Shown here: one piece after another, positions 2,471-12,725 of the stretch
Position numbering within the stretch: the stretch's first letter is position 1
Layout: the number at the start of each line of letters is the position of its first letter
IMG/VR virus record: IMGVR_UViG_2859827302_000006
Length of the DNA stretch: 12,725 bases
DNA from: a virus
Taxonomy: Duplodnaviria; Heunggongvirae; Uroviricota; Caudoviricetes
Strand: one strand, 5' to 3'
Notes under the pieces: model-generated
What the model was told of the DNA's origin: nothing
Seen by the model: only the letters and a program-made list of their open reading frames with translations
Database searches by the model: none
Position numbers and translations under genes: made by a program

Positions 2471-2535
2471 GGGTCCTTCCTGGAATTATGGCCCGTTACG
2501 GGGCGGCGACCTCGCGGTTTTTCGCTATTTATGAG
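2471..2535 (+). other. Lambda-type cos site (cos-1), cosN cohesive-end sequence GGGCGGCGACCT at 2501-2512, inverted relative to cos-2
   Basis: CCCGTTACGGGGCGGCGACCTCGCGGTTTTTCGCTATTTATGA matches the phage lambda cosN region and left-end leader with a one-base difference; the flank GGGTCCTTCCTGG resembles the lambda cosQ-side sequence. Confidence 0.75.
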
Positions 2536-2729: not shown

Positions 2730-3170
2730 TTAACTTTGCTGTTCTGTAACGACTGATTGTTCCATGCTGGCACGGCGAACGCTTACGGCATGACGCCACC
2801 CAGCCAGAAAGCCAGCCATTTTATTTCGTGCCTTGCTCACATCTTCCGGTGAATAGCCGTAAATCTGCAAACCTTCATCAAATCGATGTTCTGTTTCTTC
2901 ACTGGAGTACTCGTCACGCTCAGATGAAAGCAGCCTGGCAAACATAATTTTTTCCAGCGCACTGGTTTCTACGTGATATCTGATGGCCTCAAGACGGCTT
3001 TTACCTGAAGACCAAAGCAATGTATGCCCGATGTGATAACCGCCAGACTTTCCGCGATCCGCATTAAGATACGGCATCCCCTGTTTGGTCCATGCGCGAA
3101 TAGTGGTTCTGTTAACCTTGAAATGTTCAGCTATTTCCTGCTGACTTACAAAACAAGCTTTATCAATCAT
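2730..3170 (-). CDS. Terminase small subunit homolog (lambda Nu1-like winged-HTH N-terminus); candidate packaging-redirection protein
   Basis: N-terminus QQEIAEHFKVNRTTIRAWTKQGMPYL parallels lambda Nu1 KKQLADIFGASIRTIQNWQEQGMPVL; ATG at 3170 with AAGGTA ribosome-binding site; cos-2 lies about 70 bp upstream, as in lambda cos-Nu1. At 146 aa it is shorter than Nu1 (181 aa). Confidence 0.85.
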   Translation of the reverse strand: MIDKACFVSQQEIAEHFKVNRTTIRAWTKQGMPYLNADRGKSGGYHIGHTLLWSSGKSRLEAIRYHVETSALEKIMFARLLSSERDEYSSEETEHRFDEGLQIYGYSPEDVSKARNKMAGFLAGWRHAVSVRRASMEQSVVTEQQS

Positions 3171-3332: not shown

Positions 3333-3746
3333 TCAGATGGTTTTCAGTATGCGCTCGATGTCGCCATCATCGCCCGGGTTTCTGCCGTCGTATGCCATGC
3401 CAGCTGAAACGGCTTGCGGGCTGTGCATGTCCATAAAGTTTTCAAAGGCTGCGGTAAGCTCCGGCGCAACCTTCTGGCGTTCCTGCTCTATGGTCATGCT
3501 AAGGATGCTTTTAGCCGTACCAACATCGATACAAGGCACGTTTGCCATTGCACGTAACAGCGGCTGATAGTCGTTATGCTCATGAAGCGCCATAATCGCA
3601 TCAGCGCGCGGCTTGTCCTGCTCTTCCAGTTTGTTGAGTTGATATACGGCCTCGTAGGTTGATAAACCTCTGTCAGCCATTGCCCGCGCTTCGGCTTTAA
3701 ATTTACTCGCCAGCGGTAGCGTCATGATGCTTTCATTCGTTGCCAT
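3333..3746 (-). CDS. Hypothetical protein (137 aa), last gene of the capsid operon
   Basis: ATG at 3746 with GGGGGA ribosome-binding site 4 nt upstream; 12 nt downstream of the D-like gene stop; protein-like composition; no recognisable motif. Confidence 0.65.
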   Translation of the reverse strand: MATNESIMTLPLASKFKAEARAMADRGLSTYEAVYQLNKLEEQDKPRADAIMALHEHNDYQPLLRAMANVPCIDVGTAKSILSMTIEQERQKVAPELTAAFENFMDMHSPQAVSAGMAYDGRNPGDDGDIERILKTI

Positions 3747-3758
3747 CGTTCCCCCTGC

Positions 3759-4094
3759 TTATCGGGCCAGCGGCTGAACGGATACGCCAGAACCCGCAAA
3801 GGCGGCGCATTTTTTCGCATCGGTGTCGACGCTCTCGGGCCAGTTCACGGCGGCGATATTAAAGATCCCCGTCTTGTAGCACTGTGCTGATTTCTGCTTT
3901 GACGTGTCCACGGGGTACGAAGTCAGATAAACAGCCTTTCCGGACGCCTGACCATCCCACGGCTTAAACTCGCCATTGTCCGCCAGCATCAGCGGGGTAA
4001 ATTCCTGAATGACGCCAGCATCAGCGGCAAAATGTACCAGCGTCGTGGATACCTGCTGACTGCCTGCAAATAACTCAATGTATGGAGTGTTCAT
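3759..4094 (-). CDS. Head decoration protein homolog (lambda gpD-like), 111 aa
   Basis: Size matches gpD (110 aa); C-terminal YKTGIFNIAAVNWPESVDTDAKKCAAFAGSGVSV parallels gpD [35 protein letters not shown]; ATG at 4094 with GGGGGA ribosome-binding site. Confidence 0.7.
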   Translation of the reverse strand: MNTPYIELFAGSQQVSTTLVHFAADAGVIQEFTPLMLADNGEFKPWDGQASGKAVYLTSYPVDTSKQKSAQCYKTGIFNIAAVNWPESVDTDAKKCAAFAGSGVSVQPLAR

Positions 4095-4105
4095 AGAATC
4101 CCCCG

Positions 4106-5161
4106 TTAACCAATTTTGACGGTAACAAATTTGCGAATGTCTGCCGGCACCGGCTGCGGTGCGCTGTGCGTCTGCACGTACTCAATCGCCGGATCGCCGT
4201 CCTCAATCCAGTTTTTCGGGTAGTACATGTTTTGCGTTGCGCCCGTTCTTACCGCTTCCTGATCCATAATCGCACCATAAGCAACCAGCCCTTTATTGTT
4301 GGTGTTGCCCAAGACCAGCAAATCAGGCTCAAGGAAATGTTTTTCGGTGCCGTCGCTGTCGGCGTATTTGCCGGAATAGACGATAAGGGCAATATCGCCC
4401 AGATAGCCTTTAAAGCTCACCACTTCGCCCAGGTTTTTACAGGCCAGTTCTGCGGCGGATTCTGAACCACGGGAAAGATCGTACAGTTCGCGGAATTTTT
4501 TAAAGCTGCGTAACGTGCGCCATACCTCAGCGCCCATAATCATGACGTTTGCGGGGCAATTGCCCTGATCCGCATAAAGCTCGATATCATAGATTGGATC
4601 GTGGGTTTCTTTGTCCTGCTCGGACCATTTACGGCCTTTGGCCTGCTCTATGATGTTGTTTTCCGGCATCTTCCAGTCGATTTCATAGCGTTCTATGCCT
4701 TCGCCCTCAATGATGTTTTTTCCGGTCGTTACCGCATTTACCGCCAGCCATTCAACACGCGCTTTAATAGCGTTTACCTGGCGGCGCATGTTGCCAGTAA
4801 TCAGGCGCATACGGCGATAGGTTGGGTCGTTAAGCTGTGCCGGATCTTCTCCAGCCATGCGCATGATGGTTTTTGTTGGATCGATTTCGTGCTTTGGCTT
4901 CATGTAGCCAGGTTTAATCGTGCTGGTTTCGTACCCTTTATCGCGCTGTACCTGGCTACCAACCATAGGCGAGCAAAACGCTGACATAGTGACTTCTTCG
5001 GTGTCCAGGTTATCCAGCATGATGTTTTGGGTGTTGAATGTCGCTACTTTCGGGAAAAACAGCGTGGTAAACAGCGGACTAAATTTAAATTCCGCAATAT
5101 CCCCGCGATTCAGGTACGCAAAAAGCTGGTGAGTGTTAAGTGCCGTTGCTTTGCCTGCCAT
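4106..5161 (-). CDS. Major capsid protein homolog (lambda gpE family), 351 aa
   Basis: Collinear motif matches to lambda gpE along the length: KPGYMKPKHEIDP, RRMRLITGNMRR, SFKGYLGDIALIVYSGKY, FLEPDLLVLGNTNNKGL, YPKNWIEDGDPA; ATG at 5161 with GGGGGTG ribosome-binding site. All + strand ORFs inside it are antisense. Confidence 0.9.
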   Translation of the reverse strand: MAGKATALNTHQLFAYLNRGDIAEFKFSPLFTTLFFPKVATFNTQNIMLDNLDTEEVTMSAFCSPMVGSQVQRDKGYETSTIKPGYMKPKHEIDPTKTIMRMAGEDPAQLNDPTYRRMRLITGNMRRQVNAIKARVEWLAVNAVTTGKNIIEGEGIERYEIDWKMPENNIIEQAKGRKWSEQDKETHDPIYDIELYADQGNCPANVMIMGAEVWRTLRSFKKFRELYDLSRGSESAAELACKNLGEVVSFKGYLGDIALIVYSGKYADSDGTEKHFLEPDLLVLGNTNNKGLVAYGAIMDQEAVRTGATQNMYYPKNWIEDGDPAIEYVQTHSAPQPVPADIRKFVTVKIG

Positions 5162-5367
5162 TATTCACCCCCATAATTTTTATGCATCCCAAGCGCCGCA
5201 AGTAAATAAGAGCGTACAAGTGAACCTATCGACGGCTCCGGCGTCATCAGCGGATCCAGTCCAGCCGCCACGCCAGCCTCATAGTTTTTTTTGTGGCGCT
5301 GCTTGAGCACCTCCACGATTTCGGGGCTTATGTACACCGAAACACCGCCTTTTTTCTCTTCAGCCAT
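5161..5367 (-). CDS. Hypothetical small protein (68 aa), first gene of the capsid operon
   Basis: ATG at 5367 with GAGGAA ribosome-binding site; its stop overlaps the capsid gene start (TAATG). Confidence 0.55.
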   Translation of the reverse strand: MAEEKKGGVSVYISPEIVEVLKQRHKKNYEAGVAAGLDPLMTPEPSIGSLVRSYLLAALGMHKNYGGE

Positions 5368-5402
5368 AGTAAGAAATTCCTCTTCGACTTAAAAAATCAT
5401 AA

Positions 5403-5452
5403 CTGGATGTTCATCCAGCTCTGATTATAATCATGATTGCATTTTGTGCAAT
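5403..5452 (-). promoter_or_regulatory. Putative capsid-operon promoter (TTGCAC-16 nt-TATAAT, minus strand) with a perfect 16-bp palindrome just downstream
   Basis: The -10 TATAAT is the complement of 5424-5429 and the -35 TTGCAC is the complement of 5446-5451; CTGGATGTTCATCCAG at 5403-5418 is perfectly palindromic. Confidence 0.4.
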
Positions 5453-5528
5453 GATATTGAGTTGTGTTGCAAATTATGAAATGATTATCCCGATCATGTG
5501 TGTCAGTGCACCAAAAAGCCTCATATGC

Positions 5529-5570
5529 AAAAGCCCGATAAGCCACCTCTGACCTTATCGGGCTTTTTTA
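5529..5570 (+). terminator. Strong hairpin plus T-tract, an intrinsic terminator for + strand transcription
   Basis: GCCCGATAAG-11 nt loop-CTTATCGGGC (10-bp perfect stem, 5533-5563) followed by TTTTTT; only AAAA precedes it, so it is weaker on the minus strand. Confidence 0.5.
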
Positions 5571-5694
5571 TCTGCCTGCAAAGATGTCGAACAAAAATTA
5601 ACCATAACCATCATCTTTTTTGCATCAAAACAATTAAAAACAATAAATTACGCTCATGATGATGATGACGATAAAATCACAAAAATGCGCTTTT

Positions 5695-5743
5695 TTCCGC
5701 GCCTCCCGCCCCGTGTTCAGGCCCACCCCGCCAGGAGGCCCCG
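5695..5743 (-). other. Degenerate cos-like sequence (cos-3) next to a copy of the cos-2 terminator
   Basis: Minus-strand ACGGGGCCTCCTGGCGG...ACGGGGCGGGAGGCGCGG aligns to cos-2 ACGGGTCCTTTCCGGCA...ACGGGGCGGCGACCTCGCGG, but the cohesive-end core is disrupted. Confidence 0.45.
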
Positions 5744-5767
5744 TAAAAAAGCCGGATTGCTCCGGCT
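5744..5767 (-). terminator. Rho-independent terminator ending the replication operon after the SSB gene
   Basis: Minus-strand GCCGGA-GCAA-TCCGGC followed by T6, 16 nt after the SSB stop; near-identical to the terminator at 3303-3328. Confidence 0.7.
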
Positions 5768-5782
5768 TCTGTCACTCGTCGC

Positions 5783-6205
5783 TTAAAACGGTATGTTATC
5801 CCCGTACGGATCATCATTCCCCGCCTGTTGTTTTGCCCTGTTCAGCGCGTCAGTAGCCTGGCCCTGTTGACCTTTTTTGCCGCCCAGTCGCGCCGTTCGC
5901 GCACTGATTACACTGTCTGCGATAACCTGCCAGCCCTGCCGCGTTTCTCCGTTCTGCCCAGTCCACTGGCTGATCTGCATGTTACCCGCCACGCTCAGGA
6001 GTTCACCCTTGCGGTGCCTTTCCAGTGCTTCGGCCTGTCTGCCAAATGCCAGGACGGATAACCACATCGTCGCCGTTCCGTCATCTGCCTGGCTGCACGG
6101 AAGGGGGACCGCCATACGTGCCAGCGTCATTGGTGTGCCCTTGCTGGTCTGTTTTACCTGCGGGTCGTCCACCAGCCGCCCGTAAGCTGCTATCTGTGCT
6201 GTCAT
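5783..6205 (-). CDS. ssb: Single-stranded DNA-binding protein homolog (140 aa)
   Basis: OB-fold-like N-terminal region, Gly/Gln-rich linker and acidic C-terminal tail ending DDPYGDNIPF (compare E. coli SSB DDDIPF); strong ribosome-binding site GGAGAGGTGG; ATGA overlap with the upstream gene. Confidence 0.8.
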   Translation of the reverse strand: MTAQIAAYGRLVDDPQVKQTSKGTPMTLARMAVPLPCSQADDGTATMWLSVLAFGRQAEALERHRKGELLSVAGNMQISQWTGQNGETRQGWQVIADSVISARTARLGGKKGQQGQATDALNRAKQQAGNDDPYGDNIPF

Positions 6206-6483: not shown

Positions 6484-6657
6484 TTTTTCAAGCGTCTCAC
6501 TTCGTCGCAGTTGGGATTTTCGGTTTTTCTATGTGTGTGTTTCATAAGTATTTTTTTACCCCTCACTTTTGAGGATGTATACAGGTCGAAAAGTGAGGGA
6601 GAGCGGGCTAATTTTGGCCCTCTTTCTATCCCCCTCGCTTTTGCTCCTCACTTTTAT
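6463..6657. repeat. Iteron array, putative replication origin: seven copies of CTCACTTTT (two variants, one inverted) around an AT-rich spacer
   Basis: Copies at 6465-6475, 6478-6488, 6495-6504 (variant), 6561-6570, 6589-6599 (inverted), 6634-6642 (variant) and 6646-6655; AT-rich stretch 6510-6560; lies directly 3-prime of the Rep ATPase gene. Confidence 0.6.
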
Positions 6658-8054
6658 AGCGGCGCTACATCATCCCCATCGATACGAATAACCCCATCTT
6701 TTTCCAGCTTGTACAGCCAGCGCCGGAAGTTTTTCATTTCATACCCCAGCTTTTTCATGTCATCACGTAACAGCGGGATCGTGCACTTGTCGCCGTTCTG
6801 TGTGCGTGAACGGATGCACCCCCATAGCGCGGTATGGTTTTCCGTCTTGTTCCCTGCCTCCTCGATGCGCTCCAGTTCAACAGGAGGGCGCGGATCATCC
6901 ACCACCACCAGCGACGTGATTAATTCACCGTCAGCGTCGGTAAAAAGCTCCACCACGCGTAAGTCATATGCGGCTTCTTTGAGTTCCTCCGCGTCCTTCA
7001 TTTTGGTGCATGAGATAACCAGCGCTTCGCTTCCTGCGTCCTCCCTGCGTATCCGGTATTCAGCATCCAGCGAAGCACGAAATGCACTGGAACCGCGCGC
7101 GCCTTTCGTCTCATCCTTGCCGGAATGGTGAACCACCAGCACCGTGGCCCCTGTGCGTCGTTTCAGTTCGTCACAACCACGGATAAACGCCCCCATATCA
7201 CGGGAATCATTTTCATCATTCCCACCAAAGCAACGCGCCAGCGTATCCAGAATAATCATGCGTACAGGTTTACCCGTTTCCCGCTCCACCTGACGGGCAG
7301 CGATAACCATTTCATCAACATCAAGCGGGGCAGCCGGAAAGATGGGGCGGTTTACCAGATACAGATTTTTCACCTGCTCATCGTGCACAACCTCCCAGGC
7401 TTTTACACGACGCGGAACACCTATACCGCCTTCACCAACCACATAGAGAACCGCACCATGTGCAACCCTGCGGCCTCCCCACTGGCGACCAGTGGCAACA
7501 TGGCACGCCCACGATCCGGCAAGGAATGATTTATAGGACCCGCTAGCTCCGTATATGCTGCATAGCGATACCGCCGGAATAATCCCCTTAACCACGTAAT
7601 CCAGTTGCGTGTCGTATCCGGTAGATCCAACGCTCATCGGTAGCGTGGTTTTTCGCTGGTGGTTTTTTTCTTCCGCCGGCTCTTTCCCGCGCACCCGTTC
7701 CAGGTATTCGCGCCAGTTCTCCCGCATATGGCTGTGCATCCCTTCGGGGTAATAATTCGCATCAGTTACACCCGCCGCCGCCAGCTTGTGCGCAATGGCA
7801 TTAATATTTGATGGCCTGATGTGGCCTGCCTTGTACAGCCGGACACAATAGCGCCCCTCGTCGATGATTCTCAGGTCTGCCAGTTCATCCAGTTGATCAT
7901 CAGCCAGCACAACGGGAGGCACATTATCGCCAGCCAGTCGCCCGTCCTGTTCCTGCCACTGTTTCGCATGTGCCCAGGCATCACTACCCGCAAAAATAAT
8001 GACTTCGGTCATCTTGTCGTAAGGCTGTTTTTTTAAGTTCGGTGCGCTTTTCAT
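6654..8054 (-). CDS. RepA-like RecA-fold (AAA_25-type) replication ATPase, putative initiator-helicase (466 aa)
   Basis: Walker A GASGSYKS, Walker B-like MIILDTLARCFGG, motif VLVVHHSGKD and a basic C-terminal region; ATG at 8054 with AGGGG ribosome-binding site and ATGA overlap with the upstream gene. The N-terminal 150 aa have no recognisable primase motifs. Confidence 0.85.
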   Translation of the reverse strand: MKSAPNLKKQPYDKMTEVIIFAGSDAWAHAKQWQEQDGRLAGDNVPPVVLADDQLDELADLRIIDEGRYCVRLYKAGHIRPSNINAIAHKLAAAGVTDANYYPEGMHSHMRENWREYLERVRGKEPAEEKNHQRKTTLPMSVGSTGYDTQLDYVVKGIIPAVSLCSIYGASGSYKSFLAGSWACHVATGRQWGGRRVAHGAVLYVVGEGGIGVPRRVKAWEVVHDEQVKNLYLVNRPIFPAAPLDVDEMVIAARQVERETGKPVRMIILDTLARCFGGNDENDSRDMGAFIRGCDELKRRTGATVLVVHHSGKDETKGARGSSAFRASLDAEYRIRREDAGSEALVISCTKMKDAEELKEAAYDLRVVELFTDADGELITSLVVVDDPRPPVELERIEEAGNKTENHTALWGCIRSRTQNGDKCTIPLLRDDMKKLGYEMKNFRRWLYKLEKDGVIRIDGDDVAPL

Positions 8055-9386: not shown

Positions 9387-9606
9387 GTACCCCTCCGCAT
9401 TTTTTTTCGTTAGAAATAAGCGTTCTTCTTTCCTGTTCATCGCTCAGGAATACGCAGACCTCACCGCTAAGGCGTTTAAGTAAGCCGATGATTGCCCCTG
9501 ATTCGCTGTCGGTCATCATGCTAGGGTAATCCTCTGCCAGTGCGCAAATAACTTCGATTTGGTGGGCGCGTTCTGCTGCCTGTTGTAGTGTGATTTCCTG
9601 GCTCAT
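9376..9606 (-). CDS. Hypothetical small protein (76 aa)
   Basis: ATG at 9606 overlaps the preceding stop (ATGA); GGGGG upstream. Confidence 0.5.
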   Translation of the reverse strand: MSQEITLQQAAERAHQIEVICALAEDYPSMMTDSESGAIIGLLKRLSGEVCVFLSDEQERRTLISNEKKCGGVHVQ

Positions 9607-9803
9607 AAGCCTACCCCCTGACGAATACGGGCAGCAAATACCATCACGCAGCCAGCCGGAGATTGCTGGCGTGCTTCCTGTTCGCTGGTGGCCTCAATGG
9701 TAATCACGCGCGGTTGTGCCGTGCTCAGGGCGATAAAACGCCAGATGTATTTATTCAGGTTGTGCGAGTCCCGCCCTTTCGGGTGTGTGGTATGATTTCT
9801 CAT
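9603..9803 (-). CDS. Hypothetical small protein (66 aa), first gene of the main leftward operon; it is the C-terminal part of the 428-codon stop-free frame
   Basis: In-frame ATG at 9803 with GAGG ribosome-binding site, about 90 nt downstream of the predicted minus-strand promoter. Confidence 0.4.
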   Translation of the reverse strand: MRNHTTHPKGRDSHNLNKYIWRFIALSTAQPRVITIEATSEQEARQQSPAGCVMVFAARIRQGVGL

Positions 9804-9900
9804 AGCTACCTCGATACTGTTGCTATCGTTGGTGGTTAGAAGCCCCGTTACTGCTCCTACAGTGCGGGGTTTCGTCGTTTCTGTGCCTTTCATCAATAAG

Positions 9901-9981
9901 GTGTAAGACACAATGTAAAACAATGGTGTCTTACACGTCAACCCTTCAAAATATTTTTTTTTCGTGTATATTGTCTTACAC
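9901..9981. promoter_or_regulatory. Divergent promoter/operator switch between the RHH gene (+) and the main operon (-)
   Basis: Inverted repeat GTGTAAGACAC (9901-9911) / GTGTCTTACAC (9926-9936) plus half-site GTCTTACAC (9973-9981); + promoter TTCAAA (9945-9950)-16 nt-TATATT (9967-9972); minus promoter TTGACG (complement of 9936-9941)-17 nt-TTACAT (complement of 9913-9918). Confidence 0.55.
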
Positions 9982-10002
9982 CAAAAACATGAGGGGTTAA
10001 AC

Positions 10003-10182
10003 ATGGCAACGGGTCCAAAGAATGCAAAATCACAATCTGTAACTGCACGTATTGCCCATGAAATTATTGAAGGCATGGAGAACGTGAAAGAAGAAGGCGA
10101 AAGCACGGGACAGTTTATAAACGCAGCCATGCGCGGCGAAATCAAACGCCGCCAGCGCCGCAAGGCCAAAGAGCAGGAGTAA
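10003..10182 (+). CDS. Ribbon-helix-helix (CopG/Arc/MetJ-like) DNA-binding protein, about 59 aa; candidate repressor of the switch
   Basis: ATG at 10003 with GAGGGG ribosome-binding site; the pattern SVTARIAHEIIEGMENVKEEGESTGQFINAAMRGEIKRR fits a beta-strand plus two helices; the ORF-track start at 9964 (GTG) lies inside the promoter. Confidence 0.7.
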   Translation: MATGPKNAKSQSVTARIAHEIIEGMENVKEEGESTGQFINAAMRGEIKRRQRRKAKEQE

Positions 10183-10224
10183 CCATCACCAGCGCCGTGG
10201 TGTGAGTAACTACGGCGCATTGCT

Positions 10225-10413
10225 ATGCAGGACAACACAATGACCGATAAAGAATTGACCAAAACATTATCACCGGCACGGAAAAGACGGCGCAGAAAGA
10301 TAGAGCATGAATCAGAAAGATTCGCGCCATGTGCTTTTGCCCTTGAGCAATTCCTTAAAGAGTACAGGGAAAAGCGCTCATTGCAGGTATGGCAACGAAC
10401 TGAACCAGACTGA
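10225..10413 (+). CDS. Possible small Arg/Lys-rich protein co-transcribed with the RHH gene (likely start ATG 10240)
   Basis: Weak AGGA ribosome-binding site; basic stretch ARKRRRRK; followed by a + strand terminator. Could instead be untranslated. Confidence 0.35.
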   Translation: MQDNTMTDKELTKTLSPARKRRRRKIEHESERFAPCAFALEQFLKEYREKRSLQVWQRTEPD

Positions 10414-10490
10414 TTGCATTGCCCACCAGCCGCAAATGTGGCATTATTGGCAATGCTCATGCGTTGGGGATAACGTGTAGCTTGTGTCGA

Positions 10491-10520
10491 GGGGCCACCG
10501 TAGCGGGTGGCCTTTGTTTT
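10491..10520 (+). terminator. Rho-independent terminator of the RHH transcription unit
   Basis: GGCCACC-GTAGCG-GGTGGCC (10493-10512) followed by TTTGTTTT; a second weaker hairpin plus T-run lies at about 10613-10646. Confidence 0.6.
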
Positions 10521-10526
10521 GCCCGT

Positions 10527-10889
10527 TATTCGGCAATTGTGGCGCTTCTCCACATGGTTGATATAATCCCACTGCTCAGATTCATTTTTTGCGCAGTAGG
10601 TTAATTGTTCACAAAGGCGCTCCGGCAACGGGGCGCTTTTTGTTTTTATTAGTTTGTAGAAACCTGACTCAGAGATAATGCTCATATTCTGATTGCCGTC
10701 AGGGGTGTAAGTTAAATTTACTCCCTTTTTATCATCAAACATCTGCAACGCTCTGGCGTTAACAATATTGGTTTCACTCCCGCCAGTAAGGCCGGAAATA
10801 ACCGGAATAATTTCGGCAAAATTTTGCAGATTCTGTTTTTCAGGACGAACGAAGCCCCGCCCTTGTTCGGGAGAATATCCAGTATTCAT
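10527..10889 (-). pseudogene. Possible decayed gene with a Bro-N-like antirepressor N-terminus; the frame runs on without a stop to 9603
   Basis: The first 95 or so codons look protein-like and include ISESGFYKLIKTKSAPLPE, reminiscent of the Bro-N motif; downstream the frame is antisense to the RHH operon and rich in C/S/R; weak ribosome-binding site. Confidence 0.3.
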
Positions 10890-10941: not shown

Positions 10942-11130
10942 TTAGTGAACTGCCTCGCAGCTGTCCTTCCATGCCAGAACTTCGGATAAAGACCAGCCAA
11001 CGGAACGACCGCCCAGCTTACGCCGTGATGGGAATTGTCCGGCTTTTTCCAGGCGGTACCGACATGAGCGGCTCAGGCCTGTAAGTTGCTGACATTCTTT
11101 TTCACGTATAAAGCGATCTGTGCTTAACAC
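10942..11130 (-). CDS. alpA: AlpA-family (prophage CP4-57 / P4 Vis-like) HTH transcriptional regulator, 62 aa
   Basis: FIREKECQQLTGLSRSCRYRLEKAGQFPSRRKLGGRSVGWSLSEVLAW fits the AlpA/MerR-like HTH pattern; GTG start at 11130 with GGGGGA ribosome-binding site; directly downstream of int. Confidence 0.8.
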   Translation of the reverse strand: MLSTDRFIREKECQQLTGLSRSCRYRLEKAGQFPSRRKLGGRSVGWSLSEVLAWKDSCEAVH

Positions 11131-11215: not shown

Positions 11216-11404
11216 TGGCAAACACTGGCGGCGGTCGTTTTACAGAAGCAGGGGGAATGAGAATAAAAACTCTTTTAATTCATTATGATGCAAAGGCATA
11301 AAATTTTACTTTTACGCCTTTTTTACATATTTTTAAGAGTGATTCGCCAGTGTATAAAAAAACAGTACACCTATAAAAATCAAATGGTTATTACGATGGC
11401 TGAT

Positions 11405-11470
11405 TTTTAACCCGTTGTTCCATTTTGTTCCTTGTTGTTCGTCGTTGTGTCTCGTTGTTTCACGTTGTCC
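11405..11470. repeat. Six tandem 10-bp-phased GTTGT repeats between the int stop and alpA
   Basis: cccGTTGTTc / cattTTGTTc / cttGTTGTTc / gtcGTTGTGt / ctcGTTGTTt / cacGTTGTCc at 11411-11470, one per helical turn. Confidence 0.5.
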
Positions 11471-11495
11471 GCATCCTGAAAAATCGCAAAAAAAA

Positions 11496-12725
11496 TTATA
11501 TTTCTCTGGCTATTGGCAATGTGGTTACGTTTTCATGTGTTCCCGCCAGTATCCCTAACCGCTCCGTCCACATATCCAGCGCGTCACGTTTCGCATCCAG
11601 ATAACGGGAATGGTTATAGACTCGTTGCATCCCTGGCATCTGATGACCTGTAAGCTGCTCCACGACGTGAGGATCCACGCCTAAATCGTTCAGCATCGTT
11701 GTAAAGGTGCGCCGGATGTCATGCAGTGACCAGTGAGGGTGTTTTAGCCTCCTGTGCGCTAATCTGCCGTACTGCGACACGCTTGTTTCCTGTTTCACTT
11801 CCCCCAGCAATAAGCCCGTGTGCCTGTTCTGCTCCACCAGCTGCGTGACGAACGGCAGTATTGCTTCCGGTATGGGCCGGAATATTGCCACCTTCGTTTT
11901 GCTGTGTTCTTTCGGCACGGTCCAGAGCATTTCGGTAAAATCCCACTCGCTGATCTCCGATAACCTCAGTTCTACCGTCCGGCATCCGAAAACAATCAGG
12001 AGGCGGATTAGTGCGACGTAGTAAGGGGAAAATATTTTTTTGTCCAGTGCCTGCAATAATTCGCCAAGTTCTTTGGTGCTTAAGACACGCTCGCTTATAT
12101 CCGGTTTTTTCCCAACGTCCGCCACACTCATATCATCAAGAACGTTGCTGATTGCATAGCGCCGCCTCCGGCAGAACTTAAGCGCCTGTTTGCACGTCTG
12201 TAGCAAGAATCCGGCAGTAACAGGCGTTCGCTTTGCCACCTGGTCAAAACAGGCCAGCCAGTGCCGTAGCTCGCATTTATCCAGCGGCATAGCACCAATG
12301 TGCTGTATTACGTGATTATTAAGGCGCTTTTTCAGGGCGGCATAATCCACGCGGTTTTCCTTTACGTAAGACTCAAGCCAGTAGGTAAGCGCATCGCCAA
12401 CCGTTACGGGCTTTAACGCTTTCTGTACGGTGTAATTCATCTCATGACGTGGATTTTTCCCCTCAGCAAGCCAAGCGCGACACTGTGCCGCTTTTTCCCT
12501 GGCAGCTTTCAGACTCAGATCAGGATAATTTCCCAGCTTAATCCGTTCCGGTCGTGCTCCCCTTCCCGTTCCGGCCCTGTAGGTGAAATACCAGGTTAAA
12601 AGGCCGCTGGTTGAATGCCTGACGCTCAGGTTTCCACCGTCATTAAGAAAGGCTGTTTTTTGGGCGGGTGTGCCGTTGATTTTCCTTAGCTGTGTATCAC
12701 TCAGTTTGTTAAGTGCTCTGCGCAT
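11496..12725 (-). CDS. int: Tyrosine site-specific integrase, P4-type (409 aa); start codon at the window edge
   Basis: N-terminal arm-binding region with the LNDGGNLSV motif (compare P4 Int LADGGGLYL); C-terminal catalytic signature with R in GCRTVELR, HxxR in LHDIRRTF and the Tyr region GHQMPGMQRVYNHSRYL. Confidence 0.92.
   Translation of the reverse strand: MRRALNKLSDTQLRKINGTPAQKTAFLNDGGNLSVRHSTSGLLTWYFTYRAGTGRGARPERIKLGNYPDLSLKAAREKAAQCRAWLAEGKNPRHEMNYTVQKALKPVTVGDALTYWLESYVKENRVDYAALKKRLNNHVIQHIGAMPLDKCELRHWLACFDQVAKRTPVTAGFLLQTCKQALKFCRRRRYAISNVLDDMSVADVGKKPDISERVLSTKELGELLQALDKKIFSPYYVALIRLLIVFGCRTVELRLSEISEWDFTEMLWTVPKEHSKTKVAIFRPIPEAILPFVTQLVEQNRHTGLLLGEVKQETSVSQYGRLAHRRLKHPHWSLHDIRRTFTTMLNDLGVDPHVVEQLTGHQMPGMQRVYNHSRYLDAKRDALDMWTERLGILAGTHENVTTLPIAREI

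What the first reader, a model, noticed from the sequence alone, without database searches (positions are those of the whole stretch)
5403..5570. Capsid-operon control region: overlapping TATAAT hexamers on both strands, a perfect 16-bp palindrome, and a possible divergent small transcript
TGATTATAATCA (5423-5434) gives a consensus -10 on both strands. On the minus strand it pairs with TTGCAC at a 16-bp spacing to drive the capsid operon, and the perfect palindrome CTGGATGTTCATCCAG sits at the predicted transcript start as an operator or 5-prime stem-loop. On the + strand the only credible terminator in the region (5529-5570) lies about 100-140 nt downstream, which would fit a short non-coding RNA divergent from the capsid operon.
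Basis: partly seen in the sequence, partly recalled or inferred. Interest (0 to 1): 0.4.

Follow-up and report, generated by a model that had tools for sequence, protein, structure and literature searches.

The report
SOS-controlled promoter cassette of a phage satellite
This 180-base stretch is the conserved on/off switch in front of the capsid genes of an E. coli phage satellite (an EcCICFT073-type PICI): its "palindrome" is most likely a binding site for the DNA-damage repressor LexA sitting on the promoter start, flanked by two further operator-like sites and by a short divergent transcription unit that may make a small RNA.

Summary
The features exist, with small errors. The 12-bp palindrome TGATTATAATCA lies at 5422-5433, not 5423-5434. 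The "perfect 16-bp palindrome" is 7+2+7.

The window is phoQ followed by an EcCICFT073-type PICI. Region 5361-5569 is a discrete, mosaic-bounded control cassette found in all related islands examined. Its elements vary far less than fourfold sites of the adjacent capsid gene.

- **Minus-strand promoter.** TTGCAC-16-TATAAT is conserved in every clade.
- **Inverted repeat at its start.** It scores as a LexA (SOS) box at 18.6 bits, with the same arms as the ruvA box. A Lelliottia relative carries an unrelated canonical box at the same position. SaPI operon I is the known analogue.
- **Two operator-like sites.** Two 17-bp sites (ATTGCA-N5-TGCAAT type) lie in the spacers of the two divergent promoters.
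- **Plus-strand terminator.** It is kept as structure with four unrelated stems, and the longer U run is always on the + strand. This supports a short + strand transcript.
- **Plus-strand start.** The start conserved in all clades is TTGAGT-17-(TG)AATGAT (5457-5485), giving about 78 nt, not the TATAAT palindrome.

No target, Rfam family or published transcript was found. All transcription and binding claims are predictions.

The parts
5401..5420 (.). Predicted LexA (SOS) box, 20-mer AACTGGATGTTCATCCAGCT. It overlaps the predicted start of the capsid-operon promoter.
   Evidence: It scores 18.6 bits with a matrix built from 18 published E. coli LexA boxes. Known boxes score 6.6-27.6 when left out in turn. 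The highest score in 100 shuffles of the window was 16.5. Its arms match the ruvA box CTGGAT....ATCCAG. In 590 kb of related islands, hits of 13 bits or more occur only here and near alpA. The Lelliottia island L276 has an unrelated box of 20.9 bits at the same position.
5424..5451 (-). Predicted sigma-70 promoter P1 of the capsid operon: -35 TTGCAC (5451-5446), 16-bp spacer, -10 TATAAT (5429-5424). The start is predicted near 5417.
   Evidence: Read. It was the top-scoring operon-strand promoter in every representative. It is kept in all 59 unique variants. Diversity of the -10 is 0.005 against a neutral 0.157. No start-site mapping is available.
5422..5433 (.). 12-bp perfect palindrome TGATTATAATCA, holding TATAAT on both strands (+ 5426-5431, - 5429-5424).
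   Evidence: 11 of 12 columns are invariant. In the L083 clade it reads TGATTAAAATCA, which is TAAAAT on the operon strand and TTTAAT on the + strand.
5436..5452 (.). Operator-like site O1, ATTGCATTTTGTGCAAT (perfect ATTGCA-N5-TGCAAT). It covers the -35 and spacer of P1.
   Evidence: 13 of 17 columns are invariant. It is kept as GTTGCG-N5-TGCAAC in Salmonella and as two copies in Edwardsiella.
5466..5482 (.). Operator-like site O2, GTTGCAAATTATGAAAT. It is identical to O1 at 12 of 17 positions, with centres 30 bp apart, and lies in the spacer and -10 of the + strand promoter.
   Evidence: 15 of 17 columns are invariant, diversity 0.016. It is kept in the L083 clade, in Salmonella and, as a similar site, in Lelliottia.
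5457..5485 (+). Predicted + strand promoter: -35 TTGAGT (5457-5462), 17-bp spacer with TG at 5477-5478 (extended -10), -10 AATGAT (5480-5485). The start is predicted near 5492.
   Evidence: One search gives the coordinates. It is kept in all clades, with A at position 2 and T at position 6 of the -10 in 59 of 59 variants and TTG of the -35 in 58 of 59. The Edwardsiella version is TTGTTC-17-(TG)AATAAT.
5492..5569 (+). Predicted short non-coding transcript of about 78 nt, or about 132 nt if it starts near 5438 from the palindromic TATAAT. Its body (5487-5518) is variable and it ends in the terminator.
   Evidence: It folds at -26.2 kcal/mol, z = -5.2, mostly because of the terminator. The body is replaced between clades, diversity 0.244. 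There is no Rfam match, no conserved ORF and no significant complementarity to the capsid leader, the rest of the island or phage lambda.
5529..5569 (+). Intrinsic terminator T1: A4 (5529-5532), stem 5533-5542 / 5554-5563, 11-nt loop, T6 (5564-5569). It also marks the upstream edge of the conserved cassette.
   Evidence: The cassette boundary at 5569/5570 comes. Four unrelated stems occupy this position: E. coli main clade, L083 clade, Salmonella and Edwardsiella. In each, the U run is 6-8 on the + strand and 0-4 on the operon strand.
5391..5425 (-). Extended hairpin T2 in operon-sense RNA: AUCA-GAG-CUGGAU / GAAC / AUCCAG-UUA-UGAU (5425-5396), followed by U5 (5395-5391). It forms fully only in transcripts that start upstream of P1.
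   Evidence: Free energy is -12 kcal/mol here and -16 to -21 in relatives. The outer pairs covary (UA, UG, CG, GC), and their wobble pairs are G.U only in the operon sense. A transcript starting at 5417 keeps only 5 pairs, -4.8 kcal/mol for the whole 33-nt fold. The L083 clade lacks it.
5161..5389 (-). Leader with ribosome-binding site AAGAGGAA (5384-5377), then the first gene of the operon (5367-5161, 68 aa, PHROG 3255, unknown function). The major capsid gene (5161-4106) follows.
   Evidence: The small protein family always accompanies the O sites. Its predicted structure is two helices after an N-terminal extended segment, with no match among solved structures.

Best explanation
Window 5390-5570 is the self-contained regulatory cassette of the morphogenesis/packaging operon of an EcCICFT073-type phage-inducible chromosomal island. 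That operon encodes a 68-aa protein, a lambda-E-like capsid protein, a D-like decoration protein, a scaffold-like protein and Rpp.

**Proposed mechanism**
1. A sigma-70 promoter on the minus strand (TTGCAC-16-TATAAT) drives the operon.
2. The inverted repeat CTGGAT-N4-ATCCAG on its start site is a LexA operator. The operon is therefore shut in undamaged cells and opens during the SOS response, the signal that also induces lambdoid helper prophages.
3. Two 17-bp sites of the type ATTGCA-N5-TGCAAT add a second layer of control by a still unidentified dimeric protein. One lies in the spacer of the operon promoter, the other in the spacer of a divergent promoter. My guess for the protein is the small first gene product, which has a ribbon-helix-helix-like sequence pattern.
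4. The divergent + strand promoter (TTGAGT-17-TG-AATGAT) and the terminator at 5533-5569 delimit a short non-coding transcript of about 78 nt. A longer form of about 132 nt is possible from the palindromic TATAAT, whose -35 region is covered by the LexA box.
5. In operon-sense RNA arriving from upstream, the LexA-box palindrome extends into a 13-bp hairpin followed by U5-6. This would stop read-through. Transcripts born at the cassette's own promoter start inside the left arm and escape.

**Shown:** the sequence features, their conservation, the LexA-matrix scores, the covariation and the strand asymmetry of the terminator.

**Inferred:** every statement about binding, transcription starts, termination and the existence of the RNA.
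For: **Identity of the element**
- The window holds phoQ, then int, alpA, a RepA-type helicase, ssb, the capsid E and D homologues, an Rpp-like HTH protein and a lambda-type cosN.
- This matches published EcCICFT073.

**Cassette**
- All 80 IMG/VR relatives and 169 E. coli genomes share 5361-5569, while the DNA upstream of it is mosaic.
- The elements are 3- to 80-fold less diverse than fourfold sites of the capsid gene.

**Promoter P1**
- It is the best operon-strand candidate in every clade.

**LexA box**
- It scores 18.6 bits here and 20-22 bits in relatives, within the range of 18 known boxes. It is the top hit in the window and exceeds all 100 shuffles.
- In 590 kb of relatives, hits occur only at two syntenic positions.
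- Variants ATACAG and CTGGATAAAC break or ignore RNA pairing but move towards the LexA consensus.
- An unrelated canonical box occupies the same position in Lelliottia.
- LexA control of the packaging operon is known for SaPIs (Ubeda 2007, listed).

**O sites**
-, with cross-genus conservation and co-occurrence with the small gene.

**Plus-strand unit**
- The promoter is conserved.
- The terminator is conserved as structure, with U-run asymmetry in four unrelated stems, and faces the upstream gene's own terminator.

**T2 hairpin**
-.
Against: - There are no experimental data on transcripts or binding for this region in the papers I could search.
- Promoter-like matches as such are at chance level in this window.
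- The -35 of P1 matches the consensus at only 3 of 6 positions.
- Two clades (the L083 type and Edwardsiella) lack the LexA box, so LexA control is not universal in the family.
- For EcCICFT073, alpA expression was reported to depend on the helper phage and not on SOS alone. SOS boxes in these islands may therefore be necessary but not sufficient.
- The palindrome could be conserved as an RNA hairpin alone. Part of its symmetry, the outer pairs, is better explained by RNA pairing.
- The + strand RNA has no conserved body sequence, no Rfam family and no detectable target. It may be a by-product.
- The small protein has no Pfam, PDB-sequence or fold match.
Confidence: 0.6

Rival explanations
1. 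The palindromic TATAAT serves both strands. The minus-strand promoter drives the capsid operon. The + strand promoter makes a 100-140 nt small RNA ending at 5569. The inverted repeat is a generic operator or 5' stem-loop.
For: - There is a perfect -10 on both strands.
- An A6 tract (5391-5396) lies where an UP element would sit for the + strand promoter.
- The terminator asymmetry favours + strand transcription.
- O1 would form a 5' hairpin on such an RNA.
Against: - The + strand -35 is poor: TGGATG or CTGGAT.
- In the L083 clade the + strand hexamer is TTTAAT although the + strand terminator is retained.
- A better-conserved + strand promoter lies 55 bp downstream.
Confidence: 0.2
2. The inverted repeat is only an RNA element and not a LexA site. 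It would act as a 5' stabilising hairpin or as a leader terminator/attenuator of the capsid operon. Its resemblance to an SOS box would be accidental.
For: - It extends to a 13-bp stem followed by a U run, -12 to -21 kcal/mol.
- Compensatory changes occur in the outer pairs, and their wobble pairs fit only the operon-sense RNA.
- The consensus scan flagged it as terminator-like.
Against: - The covarying pairs lie outside or at the edge of the 20-bp LexA box.
- The inner arms never vary, so they say nothing about pairing.
- Three haplotypes carry ATACAG, which breaks a G-C pair yet raises the LexA score to 21.6.
- Lelliottia has a canonical LexA box at this position with no strong hairpin or U run.
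- LexA-like hits are confined to two syntenic positions in 590 kb.
Confidence: 0.2
3. There is no functional + strand RNA. The hairpin at 5533-5563 is a two-way insulator between the replication/accessory module and the packaging module. The + strand 'promoter' is a side effect of conserved operator sequence.
For: - The RNA body is not conserved between clades.
- No target, Rfam family or ORF was found.
- The hairpin sits exactly at a mosaic boundary.
- In the main clade it also has U4 plus GCAU on the operon strand.
Against: - The U run is consistently longer on the + strand across four unrelated stems, and it is absent on the operon strand in Salmonella.
- Upstream genes carry their own terminators directly in front of it.
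- The critical promoter positions (TTG, TG, A-11, T-7) are invariant while neighbouring positions vary.
Confidence: 0.3
4. The + strand encodes a small hydrophobic peptide (33-43 aa, MILSCVANYEMIIPIMCVS...), as in a type I toxin locus.
For: An open frame is present in many variants, and the peptide is hydrophobic.
Against: - The frame is absent or shifted in several clades.
- The C-termini differ through length changes in T runs.
- Replacements are mostly non-synonymous.
- There is no Shine-Dalgarno sequence.
Confidence: 0.03

Closest known systems
LexA-controlled packaging operon (operon I) of Staphylococcus aureus pathogenicity islands (Ubeda et al. 2007, Mol Microbiol 65:41; cited in PMC6739421 and PMC6092414)
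   Same: A phage satellite keeps its packaging/morphogenesis operon under a promoter of its own, and that promoter carries a host LexA operator. The SOS response that induces the helper prophage therefore also opens the satellite's late genes.
   Different: The host phylum and the LexA box consensus differ, and the sequences and proteins are unrelated. LexA control here is predicted from sequence only. This cassette additionally has two other operator-like sites and a divergent short transcription unit.
E. coli SOS boxes, in particular ruvA (CGCTGGATATCTATCCAGCA) and recA (TACTGTATGAGCATACAGTA) (PMC3009722, Table 4)
   Same: The motif is CTG-N10-CAG. The arms CTGGAT/ATCCAG are identical to the ruvA box, the centre ATGAACAT differs by one base from that of recA, and the position overlaps a promoter.
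   Different: The site lies on a mobile element. It is embedded in a longer RNA-level hairpin followed by a U run. It has not been shown to bind LexA.
istR-tisAB locus of E. coli (IstR-1 constitutive; IstR-2 longer, LexA-controlled and containing IstR-1; divergent LexA-controlled tisAB) (PMC2826370)
   Same: The architecture is similar: one LexA box between divergent promoters, and two possible nested small transcripts of about 78 and 132 nt sharing one terminator. Only the longer one has a promoter overlapped by the LexA box.
   Different: There is no sequence similarity and no Rfam match. The divergent gene is not a toxin. No complementarity was found between the RNA and the divergent mRNA.
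P22 immI region (Arc as first gene of the ant operon, operator in the promoter spacer, divergent Pant/Pmnt). Recalled from established literature, not checked here.
   Same: A small first gene with a ribbon-helix-helix-like pattern follows a promoter whose spacer holds a palindromic operator, and a divergent promoter holds a related site.
   Different: The fold and the DNA binding of the 68-aa protein are unproven. There is no homology to Arc or Mnt.
Protection of IS10 from outside transcription (a fold-back structure that forms only in read-through transcripts). Recalled, not checked here.
   Same: The element's own transcripts start inside the left arm of a hairpin, so only transcripts coming from outside can form it.
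   Different: Here the hairpin would terminate transcription (stem plus U run) rather than hide a ribosome-binding site. This is untested.

Membership tests
LexA operator (E. coli SOS box) | A 16-bp core CTG-N10-CAG with an A/T-rich centre, scoring within the range of proven boxes | tested here: met
   The site at 5401-5420 scores 18.6 bits. The 18 known boxes score 6.6-27.6 when left out in turn. The highest score in 100 window shuffles was 16.5. The bare CTG-N10-CAG pattern occurs 7 times in the window against 2.3 expected, so the full matrix is what discriminates.
LexA operator (E. coli SOS box) | Position overlapping a promoter or transcription start | tested here: met
   The box spans about -3 to +17 of the predicted P1 start, and about -37 to -18 of the + strand TATAAT promoter. 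Both promoters are themselves only predicted.
LexA operator (E. coli SOS box) | Conserved as a LexA-type site in relatives, even where the sequence differs | tested here: met
   Scores are 16-22 bits in all main-clade and Salmonella islands. Lelliottia has an unrelated box of 20.9 bits at the same position. The box is absent in the L083 clade and in Edwardsiella.
LexA operator (E. coli SOS box) | LexA binding and SOS-dependent derepression | not testable with these tools
   This needs EMSA or footprinting, and reporter assays in lexA mutants.
Sigma-70 promoter (P1, minus strand) | -35 and -10 hexamers at 16-18 bp spacing | tested here: met
   TTGCAC-16-TATAAT matches the consensus at 9 of 12 positions. 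It fails the scan's rule of 4 of 6 per hexamer. It is the best operon-strand score in every clade.
Sigma-70 promoter (P1, minus strand) | A mapped transcription start | not testable with these tools
   No published start-site data were found.
Rho-independent terminator (5533-5569, + strand) | G+C-rich stem directly followed by a U run, conserved as structure | tested here: met
   The stem has 10 bp and is followed by U6, -19.5 kcal/mol, z = -4.8. Four unrelated stems with U6-8 on the + strand occupy this position in relatives.
Described small-RNA families (Rfam 15) | Match to a covariance model | tested here: not met
   There was no match in the whole window up to E = 1.
Base-pairing sRNA acting on the adjacent operon (IstR-like) | Complementarity between the RNA and the leader of the divergent mRNA | tested here: not met
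   Duplex energies against the leader give z = -0.7 to +0.5 in three clades. The longest complement elsewhere in the island is 9-10 nt and in lambda 12 nt, both at shuffle level.
EcCICFT073-type Gram-negative PICI | int, alpA and a primase/helicase in one direction, followed by a packaging module with E-like capsid, D-like decoration protein, Rpp and a lambda-type cos | tested here: met
   The Rpp-like protein keeps R21, T22, R25 and K29, the residues named in PMC6739421. cosN GGGCGGCGACCT is at 2501-2512.
Ribbon-helix-helix repressor (for the 68-aa first gene product) | Recognisable RHH fold or family match | tested here: inconclusive
   There was no Pfam hit, no PDB sequence hit and no fold match. 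The monomer model shows an N-terminal extended segment plus two helices, pLDDT 73. The pattern VSVYISPDIV...PSIGxMVRxxLRxAL is RHH-like by eye only.

The most novel reading that the evidence does not exclude
E. coli and Salmonella PICIs would carry a compact two-input switch for their capsid/interference operon: host LexA plus a satellite-encoded ribbon-helix-helix-like autoregulator acting at paired operators. The divergent arm of the switch would produce a nested pair of small RNAs of about 78 and 132 nt. Their bodies are clade-specific, and they would act in trans on helper-phage or host transcripts, or in cis on read-through RNA. This would be a satellite-encoded regulatory RNA of a kind so far described only for the Vibrio PLE.
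Probability: 0.15. Interest if true: 0.65.

Novelty: new member of a known kind. Interest (0 to 1): 0.42.

Why it matters
How Gram-negative PICIs time the expression of their capsid, decoration and Rpp (packaging-redirection) genes is not described in the papers I could search. Only AlpA autoactivation of the early promoter is.

A LexA operator on the late promoter would link satellite interference and packaging directly to the SOS response. A second SOS-like box sits near alpA in most relatives. This parallels SaPI operon I and would be a case of convergent regulatory logic.

The cassette is short, modular and present in E. coli Nissle 1917 and CFT073. These strains are used for engineered PICI 'drones' and diagnostics, so knowing its operators matters for design.

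The candidate small RNA, if real, would be the first for this satellite family.

Tried and rejected
1. **Rfam.** The whole window searched at E <= 1 gave nothing.
2. **Anti-Shine-Dalgarno loop.** CCUC in the terminator loop might have paired with the operon's ribosome-binding site. The motif is not kept in the L083 clade (GAUGUGG loops), and duplex energies are at shuffle level.
3. **Targets of the + strand RNA.** None was found elsewhere in the island or in phage lambda. The longest complements are 9-12 nt, as in shuffles. A 12-nt match to lambda 136-147 is within chance.
4. **Small ORFs on either strand of the cassette.** They are not conserved.
5. **Upstream operon-strand promoter TTCATA-18-TATCAT (listed).** Its -10 loses the key A in several clades.
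6. **Esr41 and the EcOnc sRNAs of EHEC.** Esr41 is in SpLE1, not here. Sakai carries a different packaging module at this attachment site.
7. **Fold of the 68-aa protein.** The model has moderate confidence and no structural neighbour.
8. **O-site pairs in other phages.** The pattern search returned many hits, apparently mostly by chance, and no clear immunity region. Lambda has no such site.
9. **Genome-contig scans.** Both found nothing.
10. **Fur-box and CytR-octamer resemblance.** I noticed this by eye for the AT-rich palindrome and the O sites. I did not test it and do not rely on it.
Full report
**1. What the window is**

The first 1461 bases encode PhoQ. The rest is an island inserted between phoQ and roxA. 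All of its genes listed here are on the minus strand:
- tyrosine integrase (11496-12725) and AlpA (10942-11130);
- a RepA-type helicase (6654-8054) and SSB (5783-6205);
- a 68-aa protein (5161-5367);
- a lambda-E-like major capsid protein (4106-5161) and a lambda-D-like decoration protein (3759-4094);
- a 137-aa protein resembling the scaffold end of head proteases (3333-3746);
- a 146-aa HTH protein resembling small terminase, that is Rpp (2730-3170).

The lambda cohesive-end sequence GGGCGGCGACCT is at 2501-2512. This is the gene set of the Gram-negative PICI EcCICFT073 (capsid c1499, decoration c1500, rpp c1503) as published. E. coli Nissle 1917 carries the finding's region at 98.6% identity.

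None of the papers I could search describes the promoter of this operon. Only AlpA autoactivation of the early promoter is described.

**2. Check of the observation**

It is unique in the window.
- It gives TATAAT on both strands.
- TTGCAC lies 16 bp from the minus-strand TATAAT.
- CTGGATGTTCATCCAG is at 5403-5418. It has 7-bp arms around a TT centre, so it is not a perfect palindrome.
- It belongs to a longer inverted repeat, 5395-5409 / 5412-5426.
- The + strand hairpin 5533-5563 plus T6 is a strong terminator-like structure.
- Consensus promoter and terminator matches are at chance level in this window. One sequence alone therefore proves nothing.

**3. A discrete conserved cassette**

BLAST against 5,426 E. 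coli genomes and 80 IMG/VR contigs shows that 5361-5569 travels as one block with the capsid operon at 82-100% identity. The DNA upstream of 5570 is mosaic. The block begins exactly at the hairpin.

Part of the neighbouring stretch (5580-5750) is about 90% identical to non-coding DNA of Stx2 phages. This fits the accessory hot spot next to pri described for PICIs.

Among 73 haplotypes, diversity at fourfold sites of the capsid gene is 0.157. Against that baseline:

| Element | Diversity |
|---|---|
| 12-bp palindrome | 0.002 |
| O2 | 0.016 |
| O1 | 0.056 |
| Arms of the inverted repeat | 0-0.018 |
| Terminator arms | about 0.05 |
| Terminator loop, spacers and 5487-5518 | 0.2-0.39 |

The elements are therefore under selection and the sequence between them is not.

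**4. The operon promoter**

TTGC(A/G/T)N-16-TATAAT is present in all 59 unique variants. In one clade the -10 is TAAAAT, and one variant has TGTAAT. More distant islands were recovered through the 68-aa protein and the capsid protein. The promoter is also present in Salmonella as TTGCGA-16-TATAAT and in Edwardsiella as TTGCAT-16-TAAAAT. The alternative listed by the scan, TTCATA-18-TATCAT, loses the key A of its -10 in several clades.

**5. The inverted repeat is most likely a LexA operator**

The core fits CTG-N10-CAG. I built a matrix from the 18 E. coli LexA boxes tabulated in PMC3009722.
- The 20-mer at 5401-5420 scores 18.6 bits. Known boxes score 6.6-27.6 when left out in turn, and ruvA scores 18.4.
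- It is the best hit in the window and exceeds the maximum of 100 shuffles, which was 16.5.
- Its arms CTGGAT/ATCCAG are those of the ruvA box. Its centre differs by one base from that of the recA box.
- Relatives score 16-22 bits.

In 53 related islands (590 kb, both strands), hits of 13 bits or more occur at only two syntenic positions. One is this site. The other is 4-8 kb upstream, near alpA, where several unrelated sequences all look like SOS boxes. In the window that second site is at 11348-11367 and scores 18.1 bits.

Three haplotypes read ATACAG. This breaks an RNA pair but raises the LexA score.

The Lelliottia island L276 has a capsid protein 59% identical to this one. Its canonical box CACTGTTTTTTCATACAGTT (20.9 bits) lies 26 nt before the first gene of the capsid operon and has no sequence similarity to the E. 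coli site.

The box covers about -3 to +17 of P1.

LexA control of the packaging operon is established for SaPIs (Ubeda 2007, cited). I found no paper that reports it for Gram-negative PICIs.

Caveats:
- The L083 clade and Edwardsiella lack the box.
- For EcCICFT073, alpA was reported to respond to the helper phage and not to SOS alone.

**6. RNA-level hairpin around the box**

In operon-sense RNA the palindrome extends to AUCA-NNN-CUGGAU/AUCCAG-NNN-UGAU followed by U5-7. Free energy is -12 kcal/mol here and -16 to -21 in relatives.

The three outer variable pairs covary:
- TAA:TTA, GGA:TCC, GAG:TTC and CAA:TTG are all seen.
- The wobble intermediates are G.U only in the operon sense.
- 95.8% of cells are paired, and 0 of 500 shuffles reach the observed covariation score.
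- The number of independent events is small.

The left arm begins inside the -10 hexamer. An RNA starting at about 5417 keeps only five pairs. Only transcripts arriving from upstream can therefore form the terminator. I read this as insulation against read-through from the early/replication operon. This is inference.

**7. Two operator-like sites**

O1 (5436-5452, ATTGCATTTTGTGCAAT) is a perfect ATTGCA-N5-TGCAAT palindrome covering the -35 and spacer of P1. O2 (5466-5482, GTTGCAAATTATGAAAT) is identical to O1 at 12 of 17 positions, with its centre 30 bp away.

Both are nearly invariant. Both recur in the L083 clade, in Salmonella (GTTGCG-N5-TGCAAC, a symmetric change), in Edwardsiella (two sites) and, in similar form, in Lelliottia.

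They always accompany the small first gene. Its protein family (68-79 aa) is conserved across these genera. The Serratia island L277 lacks that gene, and I saw no such site there by eye.

The protein has an N-terminal extended segment and two helices. Its pattern, VSVYISPDIV...PSIGxMVRxxLRxAL, resembles ribbon-helix-helix repressors. It has no Pfam, PDB-sequence or fold match. The regulator therefore remains unidentified.

**8. The + strand unit**

The hairpin is kept at the same position with four unrelated stems:

| Clade | Stem | U run, + strand | U run, operon strand |
|---|---|---|---|
| E. coli main | GCCCGATAAG | 6-7 | 4 |
| L083 | TCCCCCGG (one member with a compensated extra base pair) | 7-8 | 3 |
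| Salmonella | CCCGCCAGCCG | UUUUCUUU after an extended stem | none |
| Edwardsiella | GCCCCCC | 8 | 4 |

The hairpin also sits head-to-head with the upstream gene's own terminator. This is the layout of convergent transcription units, so a + strand transcript ending at 5569 is likely.

Two starts are possible:
It has no usable -35. In the L083 clade it reads TTTAAT.
- **TTGAGT-17-AATGAT with TG at -15/-14 (5457-5485).** It is kept in all clades. The TTG, the TG, and the A at position 2 and T at position 6 of the -10 are invariant, while neighbouring positions vary.

The second predicts an RNA of about 78 nt (5492-5569). The first would give about 132 nt, and its -35 region is covered by the LexA box. 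This recalls the nested IstR-1/IstR-2 pair.

The RNA body differs between clades. It has no Rfam family, no conserved ORF and no detectable complementarity to the capsid leader, the island or lambda. Whether the RNA has a function of its own is open.

**9. Verdict**

Three things need refining:
- The 'palindrome' is a probable SOS box, embedded in a read-through terminator.
- The region also holds two conserved operator-like sites.

This is a new, uncharacterised member of known kinds of regulatory elements. It offers a concrete, testable link between the SOS response and satellite late genes. All functional statements are predictions.

Noticed in passing
window 11348-11367: A second LexA-box-like site (CAGTGTATAAAAAAACAGTA, 18.1 bits) lies between int and alpA, about 220 nt upstream of alpA. 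Most related islands carry a strong SOS-like box (16-25 bits) in this early region, with several unrelated sequences, and some have a tandem second box 111 bp away.
   Followed up: partly
window 2501-2512: The lambda cohesive-end sequence GGGCGGCGACCT (cosN) lies between the Rpp-like gene (2730-3170) and a 93-aa ORF (2155-2436). This is presumably the satellite's cos site.
   Followed up: no
window 5580-5750: The stretch between the cassette and the ssb terminator is about 90% identical to unannotated non-coding DNA of Stx2-converting phages. It is replaced by perC-like or other small genes in related islands, so it is a mosaic accessory slot.
   Followed up: partly
window 11400-11475 (minus strand): Upstream of alpA there is a run of at least five copies of (A/G)ACAAC(G/A) spaced 8-12 bp apart (GACAACG, AACAACG, ACACAACG, GAACAACAAG, GGAACAACGG). 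They could be binding sites for AlpA or integrase arm sites.
   Followed up: no
window 9603-10889: The 428-aa ORF listed mechanically here is not annotated in RefSeq. That region is annotated instead with several small genes, including an Icd-like cell-division inhibitor on the minus strand and two + strand genes (a YlcI/YnfO-family gene at 9964-10182, and 10225-10413). A strong + strand terminator follows at 10613-10640.
   Followed up: no
L089 (E. coli O157:H7 Sakai 1594711-1610171, prophage Sp7): The same phoQ-roxA attachment site in Sakai holds an island with a related early module (primase, ssb, pchE). Its packaging module is different and complete: HK97-type capsid, protease, portal and terminase. 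In other words it is a capsid-forming type.
   Followed up: no
window 5433-5552 (+ strand): A hydrophobic 33-39 aa open frame (MIAFCAMILSCVANYEMIIPIMCVSAPKSLICKSPISHL) ends in the terminator loop. It is not conserved in several clades and has no Shine-Dalgarno sequence.
   Followed up: yes
L274 (Edwardsiella tarda) and L276 (Lelliottia sp.): Islands in other genera place portal and S49 protease genes after the capsid and decoration genes. They keep the small first gene and the ATTGCA-N5-TGCAAT-type sites upstream. The cassette is therefore older than the particular packaging gene set.
   Followed up: partly
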